From: Janthinobacterium sp.
GTDB taxonomy: Bacteria; Pseudomonadota; Gammaproteobacteria; Burkholderiales; Burkholderiaceae_D
Reading direction: 5' to 3'
DNA length: 64,000 nt
Assembly (NCBI RefSeq): GCF_009923995.1
Contig: NZ_RFSK01000030.1
Coordinates: 1,358 to 65,357, forward strand
This document shows positions 31,230 through 32,489 of the stretch, piece by piece. The notes beneath the pieces are model-generated. The model saw nothing but the letters and a program-made list of their open reading frames with translations. It was not told where the DNA came from and ran no database searches. Position numbers and translations under genes: made by a program. How positions within the stretch are numbered: position 1 is the stretch's first letter; each line of letters begins with the position of its first letter.

Positions 31230-31281
31230 GACCGTTATTTGGCGGTTGTCACTTGACAACCGTCAAATAACGGTCTACCTT
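31230..31281 (+). promoter_or_regulatory. 46-bp palindrome (22-bp arms) overlapping a sigma70-type promoter TTGACA-N17-TACCTT
   Basis: GACCGTTATTTGGCGGTTGTCA-CT-TGACAACCGTCAAATAACGGTC (one mismatch); -35 at 31253-31258, -10 at 31276-31281. Confidence 0.8.
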
Positions 31282-31292
31282 GGAGGCATCGC

Positions 31293-31571
31293 ATGGCGCG
31301 CTCCCCGCACCCCAAGAAAGAAATCGAAGCGGCGCTGCGCCACGCGGAAAGCCAGGGCTGGCGCGTGGAAACGGGCGGCAGCCATGCCTGGGGCAAGATC
31401 TATTGCCCCTACAATAATGACGGCTGCCGTTGCGGCGCATTCTGCATCGCCTGCATCTGGAGCACGCCGAAAAATCCCGGCAACCACGCGCGGGCGATCC
31501 GCCGGGCGGTCGATCATTGCAGCGTGCACAAGCTGCTGCATGCCTTCGAGCAGCGCCAGACCAGGGAATAG
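31293..31571 (+). CDS. HicA-like putative toxin with Cys-rich insertion
   Basis: 92 aa: ALRHAESQGWRVETGGSHAWGKIYCP...CRCGAFCIAC.WSTP; contains the HicA GW..R..GSH pattern; GGAGG upstream. Confidence 0.6.
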   Translation: MARSPHPKKEIEAALRHAESQGWRVETGGSHAWGKIYCPYNNDGCRCGAFCIACIWSTPKNPGNHARAIRRAVDHCSVHKLLHAFEQRQTRE

Positions 31572-31573
31572 CC

Positions 31574-32095
31574 ATGGACTACATCTTCACCCTCAAATAC
31601 CGCCTGCCGGACGACGAAACCGACCTCGACGCGCTGGCCGGGCGCCTGGGCAGCGGCGGCTGCGACGATGCGCTCGTGGGCATCGGGCAAGCGGGCCGCC
31701 TGGCGCTGGAATTCACGCGCGAGGCCGGCAGCGCCAGCGCGGCGCTGCAAAGCGCCATGGCCGACGTGAAAGCCGTCGTGCCCGGCGCCCGCCTCGTCGA
31801 GGCCGCGCCCGACTTCGTGGGGCTGACGGACGTGGCCCAGGTGCTGGGCCTGTCCCGGCAAAACCTGCACAAGCTGATGAACAAACACCGCCACAGCTTT
31901 CCCGCCCCCGTGCACGAAGGCAGCGCCACCATCTGGCACCTGGCCGACGTGCTGGCGTGGCTGCATGCCAGGGGCAGTTACCAGCTGGAACGCGGCCTGA
32001 TCGACGTGGCCCGGGCGGCGCGGCAAATCAACCTGGCGCGGGAAGCGACGCAGACGCCGCCGCTGCCCGCCGACATGAGCGCCCTGCTCGCCTGA
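31574..32095 (+). CDS. HicB-like putative antitoxin with C-terminal AlpA-like HTH
   Basis: N-terminal ...EFTREAGSASAALQSAMADV; C-terminal VGLTDVAQVLGLSRQNLHKL...FPAPV...W..ADVLAWL; starts 2 nt after the upstream stop. Confidence 0.6.
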   Translation: MDYIFTLKYRLPDDETDLDALAGRLGSGGCDDALVGIGQAGRLALEFTREAGSASAALQSAMADVKAVVPGARLVEAAPDFVGLTDVAQVLGLSRQNLHKLMNKHRHSFPAPVHEGSATIWHLADVLAWLHARGSYQLERGLIDVARAARQINLAREATQTPPLPADMSALLA

Positions 32096-32193
32096 TGGGC
32101 CGGGAACTGCGCGAAAACTACGTATTCATACTGATTTCACATAGGAAACACGGACAAAACGTGGTAGGCCCCGCGTTTATTCCCATTTAGACA

Positions 32194-32222
32194 GTGCAAA
32201 ATGCCGGCAAATACGGTATAGT
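32194..32222 (+). promoter_or_regulatory. Candidate sigma70 promoter for the DEAD-box helicase
   Basis: GTGCAA-N17-TATAGT about 265 nt upstream of the helicase ATG. Confidence 0.5.
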
Positions 32223-32489
32223 GTCGTTGTGCGCTGCAATATGTTTCCTTGAAGCGATGGCAACACCGCAGTTACATGCACTACAAACTTAGCAGCTTCG
32301 CAAGCCTTAGCGCATCCACAGGATGCCGCTTAATAAAGCCCTCCCGCCTTGTGTGTCGCACCTGACACCGTCCCGGCGCAAAGCTTTTGTGCCGAAATTT
32401 CTTTCTAGTTGAGTCATTTCGTTTTGGTTGGCGTTGCTATTTTGCGTTCTGCTTTTTGCAAGAACGCTGATTTTCACGAAAGAAAAAGA

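What the first reader, a model, noticed from the sequence alone, without database searches (positions are those of the whole stretch)
31230..32095. Candidate uncharacterised HicAB-like toxin-antitoxin system with a Cys-rich toxin and AlpA-type antitoxin
Seen in sequence: a two-gene unit with a 2-nt gap between the housekeeping genes fabI and a DEAD-box helicase. Gene 1 (92 aa) has GWRVETGGSHAW plus an insertion CPYNNDGCRCGAFCIAC and a later Cys (six Cys in total). Gene 2 (173 aa) has an alpha/beta N-terminus ending in REAGSASAALQSAMADV and an HTH (LTDVAQVLGLSRQNL...FPAP...W). Established: HicA mRNA interferases carry a G-S-H motif with the catalytic His, are encoded toxin-first, and HicB joins a partial RNase H fold to a DNA-binding domain. 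Inference: a HicAB variant in which a putative metal-binding or redox-sensitive Cys cluster could regulate the toxin, with an AlpA/excisionase-like HTH instead of the usual Xre-HTH or RHH. This is the best candidate for an undescribed system in the window.
Basis: partly seen in the sequence, partly recalled or inferred. Interest (0 to 1): 0.72.

Follow-up and report, generated by a model that had tools for sequence, protein, structure and literature searches.

The report
Mobile toxin-antitoxin-like pair, HicA-fold toxin
Two small genes wedged between fabI and an RNA helicase belong to a widespread, mobile-element-borne pair that looks like a self-regulated toxin-antitoxin module (a zinc-site, HicA-shaped small protein plus a new kind of DNA-binding partner); databases already list it as an untested phage-defence candidate.

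Summary
Gene 1 (31293-31571, 92 aa) and gene 2 (31574-32095, 173 aa) are 2 nt apart and lie between fabI and a DEAD-box RNA helicase, with all quoted motifs present.

- Gene 1 has the HicA topology (alpha-beta-beta-beta-alpha). It gets weak profile and Foldseek support for a HicA-like fold but fails the Pfam HicA model.
- Its cysteines form a conserved metal-site pattern: C38, C51 and C76, plus either C45 or a His two residues after C76.
- Gene 2 has a borderline AlpA-type HTH. Its N-terminal domain is ferredoxin-like, so it is not a HicB.

The pair is not undescribed.
- It matches PADLOC candidate PDC-M06 (untested) and PHROGs 5923 and 2620.
- A distant homologous pair in phage-plasmid Cyrano is annotated HicA/HicB.
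- Gene 1 directly precedes gene 2 in 80 of 80 related loci.
- Elsewhere the pair follows the integrase of guaA-associated ICEs or sits on SSU5-like phage-plasmids.

An invariant palindrome, GGTTGTCA-N2-TGACAACC, overlies the -35 box in nearly every locus. In Janthinobacterium the pair is old, under purifying selection and repeatedly deleted. Broken gene 1 beside intact gene 2 recurs.

Best reading: an autoregulated type II toxin-antitoxin-like module (confidence about 0.5). Toxicity, RNase activity and metal binding are untested.

The parts
31230..31275 (.). 46-bp near-perfect palindrome, the putative operator. Arms are 31230-31251 and 31254-31275. The invariant core GGTTGTCA-CT-TGACAACC lies at 31244-31261.
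   Evidence: the repeat finder gives 22-nt arms, 95% complementary, 2 nt apart. The core is invariant at the same position upstream of gene 1 in about 77 loci from many genera. It is unique in the 6.2-Mb genome even allowing 2 mismatches.
31253..31281 (+). Putative sigma-70 promoter: -35 TTGACA (31253-31258, inside the palindrome), a 17-nt spacer, and -10 TACCTT (31276-31281). Only 11 nt separate the -10 from the ATG.
   Evidence: Read from the sequence. The same architecture, with a better -10 (CATACT or TACATT), is conserved in related loci. The right spacer base that completes TTGACA is T in 71 of 71 distinct sequences. The window's own -10 matches only 3 of 6, so the consensus scan did not call it.
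31293..31571 (+). Gene 1, 92 aa. A PDC-M06A / phrog_5923 family protein with a HicA-like alpha-beta-beta-beta-alpha fold and a conserved Cys/His set. It is the putative toxin.
   Evidence: PADLOC E 9.4e-48 and phrog_5923 E 3.7e-15. AF2 model pLDDT 86.5 with H9-20, E24-27, E32-37, E52-56, H62-91. Across the family, H6 is invariant and W23, H31, C38, C51, T58, P59, A66 and C76 are at least 90% conserved; H65 is kept in 58 of 67 members. There are 709 representative clusters at E <= 0.001.
31574..31810 (+). Gene 2 N-terminal domain (residues 1-79), ferredoxin-like beta-alpha-beta-beta-alpha-beta. It is the putative toxin-neutralising or dimerisation domain.
   Evidence: AF2 pLDDT is 87-97 over this part, with E2-10, H18-27, E33-38, E42-50, H54-68, E73-79. 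Foldseek finds only generic ferredoxin-like folds, best E 3.4e-3. hhalign against HicB gives 1.5%. The domain occurs alone as an 84-aa ORF in G229.
31814..32095 (+). Gene 2 C-terminal part. It holds an AlpA/HTH_17-type helix-turn-helix (residues about 81-133) and a long helix (140-160). It is the putative operator-binding domain.
   Evidence: Pfam PF05930 E 5.2e-4 at 20.3 bits (cut-off 21) and PF12728 E 0.002. PADLOC PDC-M06B E 1.3e-75. phrog_2620 'excisionase and transcriptional regulator' E 2.7e-21. Sources name homologues AlpA family or HTH regulator.

Best explanation
The unit is a self-contained, autoregulated two-gene module of mobile-element origin that works like a type II toxin-antitoxin pair.

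- Transcription. One promoter drives both genes. Its -35 box sits in the centre of a conserved palindrome.
- Gene 2. This is the antitoxin and repressor. Its AlpA/MerR-type HTH is proposed to bind the palindrome as a dimer and block the -35. Its ferredoxin-like N-terminal domain is proposed to bind and neutralise gene 1 protein.
- Gene 1. This is a small protein with the HicA (dsRBD-like) fold. A structural metal site, most likely zinc, is proposed to staple it together. The ligands would be C38, C51, C76 and a fourth ligand: C45 in this subfamily, or a His two residues after C76 in others.
- Toxic activity. A conserved His set (H6, H31, H65) lies where HicA has its catalytic His, so the proposed toxic activity is RNA cleavage.
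- Origin. The module normally rides next to the integrase of guaA-associated ICEs and on SSU5-like phage-plasmids. There it would stabilise the element and/or abort phage infection. In this Janthinobacterium lineage it was stranded long ago between fabI and the helicase gene and is slowly being lost.

Shown here: gene structure, family membership, strict pairing, conserved operator and promoter architecture, mobile-element contexts, fold topologies, the conservation pattern of Cys and His, purifying selection, and decay patterns.

Inferred only: toxicity, RNase activity, metal binding, g1-g2 binding, and repression by gene 2.
For: Pairing and mobility
- Gene 1 lies directly upstream of gene 2 in 80 of 80 related loci from about 50 genera.
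- All 19 gene-1-positive genomes among 400 class-level genomes also carry gene 2, adjacent wherever both coordinates are listed.
- The typical context is guaA, then a P4-type integrase, then g1-g2, then AlpA and ParB-like, DUF932, RadC or AbiEi genes. This is the guaA-associated ICE type described in PMC10386936 and PMC7385641.
- Distant homologous pairs sit on non-integrating SSU5-like phage-plasmids (344 plasmid records). In Cyrano they are expressed in lysogeny (PMC9928086).

Autoregulation
- The core GGTTGTCA-N2-TGACAACC is invariant over the -35 TTGACA, with a 17-nt spacer and a -10, in nearly all loci.
- It is unique in this genome.
- Cyrano has an analogous palindrome over its -35.

HicA-like gene 1
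- The AF2 topology is alpha-beta-beta-beta-alpha.
- hhalign against 17 bona fide HicA proteins gives P 1.6e-4, with GW and GSH in register. The alignment stays collinear over 63 columns at relaxed settings.
- BFVD Foldseek returns named HicA-like proteins at ranks 4, 5, 11, 25, 32 and 49.

Metal site
- C38, C51 and C76 are conserved in 61-65 of 67 diverse members.
- C51 is His in the phage-plasmid branch.
- An extra loop Cys and a His at C76+2 are inversely associated, Fisher p 4e-4.

Toxin-like decay asymmetry
- Among g2-anchored loci, gene 1 is frameshifted or truncated beside an intact gene 2 in L073, L102, L105, L125 and L146. The same is seen in L048 and G397.
- The genus chimera L050 carries H31P and has lost its start codon.

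Functionality
- dN/dS is 0.18 and 0.21, and dS equals that of fabI.

Prior flag
- PADLOC lists the pair as PDC-M06, a candidate chosen because instances are embedded inside known defence systems.
Against: - No experiment exists for any member in the searched literature.
- HicA homology is weak. There is no Pfam PF07927 hit for gene 1, and gene 1 is not among the sub-threshold PF07927 hits in its own genome.
- With a more diverse family alignment the hhalign probability drops to 12%.
- Foldseek against the PDB gives no HicA and nothing significant.
- Gene 2 is unlike any known antitoxin N-domain.
- One genome (G229) holds an intact, solitary gene 1 homologue with no gene 2 beside it. That is awkward for a toxin unless it is neutralised in trans.
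- The decay asymmetry comes mostly from a gene-2-anchored sample, which cannot show the reverse case.
- The conserved His residues could be structural or metal ligands rather than catalytic.
- PADLOC PDC candidates can fail when tested: two others showed no defence in PMC12409345.
Confidence: 0.5

Rival explanations
1. It is a regulatory pair rather than a toxin-antitoxin pair. Gene 2 is a transcription factor of the mobile element. Gene 1 is a small zinc-binding co-regulator or anti-repressor that modulates gene 2. Neither is toxic.
For: - Gene 2 carries a DNA-binding HTH of the AlpA/excisionase class.
- A dedicated operator overlaps the promoter.
- An intact solitary gene 1 exists in G229, and solitary gene 2 copies exist in G362, G334 and G339.
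- Evidence for HicA homology is weak.
Against: - The operator core occurs once in the genome, so there is no regulon beyond the pair itself.
- The pair persists as an autonomous unit in three unrelated contexts: ICE, phage-plasmid, and bare chromosome with no element genes left. A regulator with nothing to regulate would be expected to be lost quickly, yet dN/dS is about 0.2.
- Recurrent inactivation of gene 1 with gene 2 retained fits a harmful gene 1.
Confidence: 0.22
2. Its selected function is anti-phage defence (abortive infection), as implied by the PADLOC label PDC-M06. Mechanistically this overlaps with the toxin-antitoxin reading but differs in what the module is for.
For: - Both proteins give strong PADLOC PDC-M06A/B matches.
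- The candidate was defined from cassettes embedded in BREX, DISARM, type I RM or Hma systems.
- It sits at the integrase-proximal cargo edge of ICEs, beside AbiEi-type and Hypoth_Ymh genes in some loci.
- It is expressed from a phage-plasmid prophage like a moron.
Against: - Guilt-by-embedding is a contextual cue, not a test.
- No phage-challenge data exist.
- Two other PDC candidates showed no defence when deleted in their native host (PMC12409345).
- In this window the neighbours are housekeeping genes, not defence genes.
- Element stabilisation explains the ICE and phage-plasmid locations equally well.
Confidence: 0.2
3. It is a recombination directionality (excisionase) module serving the neighbouring ICE integrase. 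Gene 2 would be the Xis/AlpA-like factor and gene 1 its accessory.
For: - The position is immediately downstream of the P4-type integrase in most loci.
- PHROG annotation of the gene 2 family is 'excisionase and transcriptional regulator'.
- The HTH is of the AlpA/HTH_17 class.
Against: - The pair is conserved on SSU5-like phage-plasmids that replicate as plasmids and have no adjacent integrase.
- It is also conserved in Janthinobacterium, where no integrase is present.
- The ICEs carry a separate canonical AlpA gene next to the pair.
- The conserved binding site lies on the pair's own promoter, not at an attachment site.
Confidence: 0.06

Closest known systems
HicAB type II toxin-antitoxin systems (HicA, Pfam PF07927; HicB)
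   Same: - The toxin gene comes first and the gap between the genes is tiny.
- The small protein has alpha1-beta1-beta2-beta3-alpha2 topology.
- GW and G-S-H motifs fall in the same register as HicA.
- The partner joins a neutralising N-domain to a DNA-binding C-domain.
- A palindromic operator lies over the promoter.
- A distant homologous pair is annotated HicA/HicB in phage Cyrano.
   Different: - Gene 1 fails the Pfam HicA model and has no PDB HicA match.
- It has a longer beta2-beta3 loop, a 30-residue C-terminal helix, and a conserved Cys3+(Cys/His) site that ordinary HicA proteins in the comparison set lack.
- Gene 2's N-domain is ferredoxin-like, not the HicB partial RNase H fold.
- Its HTH is AlpA/HTH_17, not Xre or RHH.
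PADLOC phage defence candidate PDC-M06 (Payne et al., bioRxiv 10.1101/2024.01.29.577857)
   Same: It is the same family. Both proteins match the PDC-M06A and PDC-M06B models over their full length, in the same order and adjacency.
   Different: PDC-M06 is only a contextual candidate, with 497 cassettes counted in RefSeq. No mechanism, fold assignment or test is attached. This copy is not embedded in a defence system but lies between housekeeping genes.
SSU5_055/SSU5_054 and Cyrano CYRAN_51/CYRAN_50 of SSU5-like phage-plasmids (PHROGs 5923 and 2620)
   Same: - It is a homologous pair with the same order.
- An analogous palindrome lies over a TTGACA -35.
- It is expressed in lysogeny.
   Different: - The citrobacterial phage-plasmid gene 2 homologue is only about 34% identical to the window's.
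- The loop is shorter and His replaces C51.
- The half-site sequence differs: GTTGACA..TGTCAAC.
AlpA / Xis-type HTH_17 (MerR-like) regulators and excisionases
   Same: The gene 2 HTH (residues 81-133) aligns end to end with the AlpA and HTH_17 models. Homologues are named AlpA family by NCBI and JGI.
   Different: - Scores fall just below Pfam cut-offs.
- AlpA proteins are about 60-130 aa with a single domain. Gene 2 adds an 80-aa ferredoxin-like N-domain and a C-terminal helix.
- It is always paired with gene 1.

Membership tests
HicA toxin (Pfam PF07927) | Sequence matches the family model above its curated cut-off (27 bits) | tested here: not met
   There is no PF07927 hit for gene 1 at E <= 1. 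Gene 1 is not among the sub-threshold hits in its own genome at E <= 10. Only 2 of 67 family members hit, at E about 0.05.
HicA toxin (Pfam PF07927) | dsRBD-like alpha1-beta1-beta2-beta3-alpha2 fold | tested here: inconclusive
   The AF2 topology fits. BFVD Foldseek gives HicA-like named proteins at probability 0.95-0.97 and TM 0.5-0.68. PDB Foldseek shows no HicA and nothing below E 0.38. hhalign probability is 50% with alignment A1 and 12% with alignment A4.
HicA toxin (Pfam PF07927) | Conserved catalytic His in a G-[ST]-H motif at the start of beta2 | tested here: met
   GGSHAW is present, and hhalign places H31 on the HicA GSH His. H31 is kept in 64 of 67 family members, although the preceding residue varies. 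A catalytic role was not tested.
HicA toxin (Pfam PF07927) | Ribosome-independent RNase activity and growth arrest relieved by the partner | not testable with these tools
   This needs expression and RNase assays.
HicB antitoxin | N-terminal partial RNase H-like fold (beta-beta-beta-alpha-beta) that covers HicA | tested here: not met
   The gene 2 N-domain is beta-alpha-beta-beta-alpha-beta. Foldseek gives only ferredoxin-like folds. hhalign against 12 HicB proteins gives 1.5%.
HicB antitoxin | C-terminal RHH or Xre-type DNA-binding domain | tested here: not met
   The DNA-binding part is AlpA/HTH_17-like instead.
PADLOC PDC-M06 (candidate system) | Adjacent genes matching the PDC-M06A and PDC-M06B models | tested here: met
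   E 9.4e-48 over residues 1-86 and E 1.3e-75 over residues 1-163, with the genes 2 nt apart.
AlpA family (Pfam PF05930) | Match to the model above the cut-off (21 bits) | tested here: inconclusive
   20.3 bits, E 5.2e-4, covering model positions 3-50 of 51. This is just under the cut-off.
Type II toxin-antitoxin module (generic) | Two small co-directional, coupled genes, one product with a DNA-binding domain, and a palindromic operator at their own promoter | tested here: met
   Binding itself is inferred.
Type II toxin-antitoxin module (generic) | Patchy, horizontally spread distribution on mobile elements | tested here: met
   The pair is present in about 5% of 400 class-level genomes and 10 of the 25 genus genomes. 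It occurs in ICE and phage-plasmid contexts.
Type II toxin-antitoxin module (generic) | Toxin is neutralised by direct binding of the antitoxin protein | not testable with these tools

The most novel reading that the evidence does not exclude
Gene 1 could be a HicA-fold RNase whose own Cys3+(Cys/His) metal site acts as a built-in switch. Loss or oxidation of the metal would change toxin activity or its grip on the antitoxin. Triggers could be oxidative stress, metal starvation or a phage factor. The toxin itself, not only antitoxin turnover, would then sense the trigger.

In addition, the variable but symmetric outer arms of the operator could form a specificity code. That code would insulate co-resident copies of the module from one another.
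Probability: 0.1. Interest if true: 0.75.

Novelty: new variant of a known kind. Interest (0 to 1): 0.5.

Why it matters
If the toxin-antitoxin reading holds, the family would add three things:
- a metal-site-bearing branch of the HicA fold;
- a new antitoxin architecture, with a ferredoxin-like domain joined to an AlpA-type HTH;
- an unusually well-conserved operator.

The family is large. It spans 709 representative clusters at 50% identity and occurs in about 5% of sampled genomes of the class.

It sits at the integrase edge of guaA-associated ICEs in Pseudomonas, Ralstonia, Burkholderia, Stenotrophomonas and Bordetella, and on SSU5-like phage-plasmids of enterobacteria. Its function therefore bears on how these elements are maintained and on phage defence.

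It would also give PADLOC candidate PDC-M06 a testable mechanism. For this particular window it is an old, stranded copy of limited local importance.

Tried and rejected
1. Direct sequence search of both proteins and their family profiles against PDB chains found nothing usable.
2. NCBIfam gave no meaningful hit.
4. Gene 2 as HicB is rejected on topology, Foldseek and hhalign.
5. A more diverse gene 1 alignment was built from the exhaustive representative search in the hope of bridging to HicA. The hhalign probability fell from 50% to 12%.
6. An HNH or beta-beta-alpha-metal nuclease reading of the His/Cys pattern was considered from memory. I dropped it because the motif order does not fit. 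It was not tested with a tool.
7. The palindrome as a fabI intrinsic terminator is rejected. It has no T-run and the scan did not call it. The same core follows integrase genes elsewhere and always carries the -35.
8. Recent horizontal arrival in this genome is rejected, because dS of the pair equals dS of fabI and the locus is syntenic in all genus carriers.
10. Literature searches for PDC-M06 or any experimental work on the family found only the assignment line in a supplement.
Full report
**What is there**

The ORF list and the sequence show two co-directional genes.
- Gene 1 is at 31293-31571 and encodes 92 aa.
- Gene 2 is at 31574-32095 and encodes 173 aa.
- They are separated by 2 nt.

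The flanks are FabI (E 2e-151) and a DEAD-box RNA helicase.

The finding's start coordinate, 31230, is the first base of a 22-nt-arm inverted repeat: 31230-31251 / 31254-31275, with one mismatch. The centre of that repeat holds a perfect TTGACA (31253-31258). A 17-nt spacer follows, then TACCTT (31276-31281), then 11 nt, then the ATG.

**Family assignment**

- Pfam and NCBIfam do not recognise gene 1. For gene 2 they give only a borderline AlpA/HTH_17 hit at residues 81-133: 20.3 bits against a cut-off of 21.
- PADLOC recognises both proteins over their full length as PDC-M06A (E 9e-48) and PDC-M06B (E 1e-75).
- PDC-M06 is one of 145 untested 'phage defence candidates' proposed because cassettes were found embedded in BREX, DISARM, type I RM or Hma systems (bioRxiv 10.1101/2024.01.29.577857). 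The supplement assigns cassette CAS_00046, with 497 instances, as PDC-M06.
- PHROGs has the two families as phrog_5923 (unknown function) and phrog_2620 ('excisionase and transcriptional regulator').
- No paper in the library reports an experiment on the family.

**Size and spread**

- The word-indexed search found 630 homologues of gene 1 and 2003 of gene 2. Identities are 60-75% across Janthinobacterium, Pseudomonas, Ralstonia, Burkholderia, Xanthomonas, Bordetella, Mesorhizobium and others.
- The exhaustive profile search found 709 representative clusters for gene 1.
- In a sample of 400 genomes of the class, gene 1 occurs in 19 and gene 2 in 22. All 19 gene 1 genomes also carry gene 2, adjacent wherever both coordinates are listed.
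- In 80 loci retrieved with the gene 2 profile, gene 1 is directly upstream every time.

**Genomic context**

Outside Janthinobacterium the usual layout is as follows:
- guaB, guaA, a P4-type tyrosine integrase, gene 1, gene 2;
- an AlpA gene on the other strand;
- then ICE genes such as ParB-like, DUF932 and RadC, and sometimes AbiEi or Hypoth_Ymh.

This is the integrase-proximal edge of guaA-associated ICEs, as described in PMC10386936 and PMC7385641.

More distant pairs, with gene 2 about 34% identical, sit on SSU5-like phage-plasmids of enterobacteria. That covers 344 plasmid records. In phage Cyrano the two genes are annotated 'HicA toxin protein' and 'putative antitoxin HicB'. They are among the genes transcribed in lysogeny (PMC9928086). 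That annotation is a prediction, not a test.

**History in this genus**

- In one search, 10 of 25 genus genomes carry gene 2. Every genus copy found lies between fabI and the helicase gene.
- Synonymous divergence of the pair (0.41-0.46) equals that of fabI (0.46). dN/dS is 0.18 and 0.21, against 0.07 for fabI. The insertion is therefore old, vertically inherited and under purifying selection.
- Close relatives that 'lack' the pair keep scraps of the gene 1 5' end and the gene 2 3' end, so internal deletions have occurred repeatedly.
- More distant species have an unrelated intergenic region with an ordinary terminator.

**Regulatory region**

The sequence upstream of gene 1 was compared in all loci.
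- The half-sites GGTTGTCA and TGACAACC, 2 nt apart, are invariant in 71 distinct sequences.
- The second spacer base is always T, which completes TTGACA.
- A 17-nt spacer and a -10 (mostly CATACT, or TACATT in the genus) follow.
- The ATG comes about 11 nt later.
- The core occurs once in the 6.2-Mb genome even with 2 mismatches allowed.
- Cyrano has an analogous palindrome (GTTGACA-GA-TGTCAAC) over its -35.

This is what an operator for autorepression by a dimeric HTH protein looks like. Binding itself was not shown.

**Gene 1 protein**

- The AF2 model has pLDDT 86.5 and helix 9-20, strands 24-27, 32-37 and 52-56, and helix 62-91. That is the HicA/dsRBD order of elements.
- I built a HicA set from 17 PF07927 hits in related genomes. 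hhalign against the close-family alignment gives P 1.6e-4 and probability 50%, with GW and the GSH His in register. At relaxed settings the alignment stays collinear through beta3, the conserved Pro and alpha2.
- With a broader family alignment the probability falls to 12%.
- Foldseek against the PDB finds nothing.
- Foldseek against BFVD gives two Gordonia phage proteins first, probably family members. Proteins named HicA-like follow at ranks 4, 5, 11, 25, 32 and 49, with probability up to 0.97 and TM 0.5-0.68.
- The Pfam HicA model does not see gene 1, even sub-threshold in its own genome.

My reading is that a HicA-like fold is likely, common ancestry is plausible, and membership is not established.

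**Cysteines and histidines**

- Across 67 diverse members, H6 is invariant. W23, H31, C38, C51, T58, P59, A66 and C76 are at least 90% conserved, and H65 is kept in 58 of 67.
- C45 and C47 belong to the long-loop 'CRCG' subfamily, which includes this protein. C54 is variable.
- In the phage-plasmid branch the C51 position is His.
- Members with an extra loop Cys usually lack His two residues after C76, and members without it often have that His. The counts are 35/7 against 10/15, Fisher p 4e-4, not corrected for phylogeny.

This pattern fits a four-ligand structural metal site, probably zinc. It would tie the end of beta2, the start of beta3 and the long helix together. A regulatory redox role is not supported by anything yet.

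**Gene 2 protein**

- The model has pLDDT 83.
- Residues 1-79 form a beta-alpha-beta-beta-alpha-beta domain.
- The HTH region is predicted with lower confidence.
- A long helix spans residues 140-160.
- Foldseek returns only generic ferredoxin-like folds.
- hhalign against 12 HicB proteins gives 1.5%.

Gene 2 is therefore not a HicB. The N-domain occurs alone as an 84-aa ORF in one genome.

**Is gene 1 harmful?**

Evidence in favour:
- Gene 1 is frameshifted, truncated or internally deleted beside an intact gene 2 in L073, L102, L105, L125 and L146, and also in L048 and G397.
- The genus chimera L050 fuses a start-less gene 1 carrying H31P to the HTH half of gene 2.

This is the order of decay expected if gene 1 is the toxic partner.

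Caveats:
- Most of this comes from a gene-2-anchored sample, which cannot show the reverse case.
- G229 has an intact solitary gene 1 with no gene 2 beside it. The same genome has a second locus with a gene 2 N-domain-only ORF.
- Solitary gene 2 copies also exist.

**Verdict**

The best-supported explanation, at confidence about 0.5, is an autoregulated type II toxin-antitoxin-like module of ICE and phage-plasmid origin. It pairs a HicA-fold, metal-site-bearing toxin with a new antitoxin architecture.

Three rivals remain:
- a non-toxic regulator pair (0.22);
- a primarily anti-phage role (0.2), which overlaps mechanistically with the toxin-antitoxin reading;
- an excisionase module (0.06).

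The family is already catalogued as PADLOC PDC-M06 and in PHROGs but is not characterised. I class it as a new variant of a known kind, with moderate interest.

Noticed in passing
window 31230-31275, and the equivalent sites in L070-L149: Beyond the invariant 8-bp half-sites, positions 10-13 from the centre of the palindrome are complementary in 76-83% of 71 distinct sequences while using all four base-pair types. Complementarity falls to chance by about position 16. The outer arms are symmetric but variable. That could mean co-evolving operator specificity or selection for a hairpin or cruciform.
   Followed up: partly
window 31276-31295: Only 11 nt separate the -10 hexamer from the gene 1 ATG here and in nearly all related loci. 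The mRNA should therefore be leaderless or nearly so, although a GGAG lies in those 11 nt. The window's own -10 (TACCTT) is weaker than in its relatives.
   Followed up: no
window 32096-32486: The roughly 300-400 nt upstream of the DEAD-box helicase coding region are almost invariant across the genus. This includes distant species that never carried the pair (alignment). The stretch contains a terminator-like hairpin at 32374-32394. It is probably a long regulatory leader of a cold-shock-type helicase.
   Followed up: no
L043, L046, L049, L051, L054, L058, L050 (genus relatives): At least six internal deletions of the cassette leave the gene 1 5' end and the gene 2 3' end. In L050 the deletion creates an in-frame gene1::gene2 chimera (also present in the protein database as P0387) with H31P and no start codon.
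   Followed up: yes
L154 1966-2208 (minus strand) and G229:C5:180666-181123: A small-genome member of the class has an intact solitary gene 1 homologue next to a DegP-like protease gene. Elsewhere in the same genome a stop-containing gene 1 lies beside an 84-aa ORF that is only the gene 2 N-domain.
   Followed up: partly
BFVD hits A0A410TDQ7 and A0A162E1K4; Gordonia phage Horus gene 52: The best structural matches of gene 1 are uncharacterised Gordonia phage proteins (27% identity, TM 0.57). A Gordonia phage also carries a gene 2-like HTH protein. The pair may therefore reach actinobacteriophages.
   Followed up: no
L156 1753-2466 (G362, same order): A solitary, apparently intact gene 2 homologue lies downstream of an acetyl-CoA synthetase-like ORF (my reading, not checked with a family search). 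There is no gene 1 ORF in the roughly 400-nt upstream gap.
   Followed up: partly
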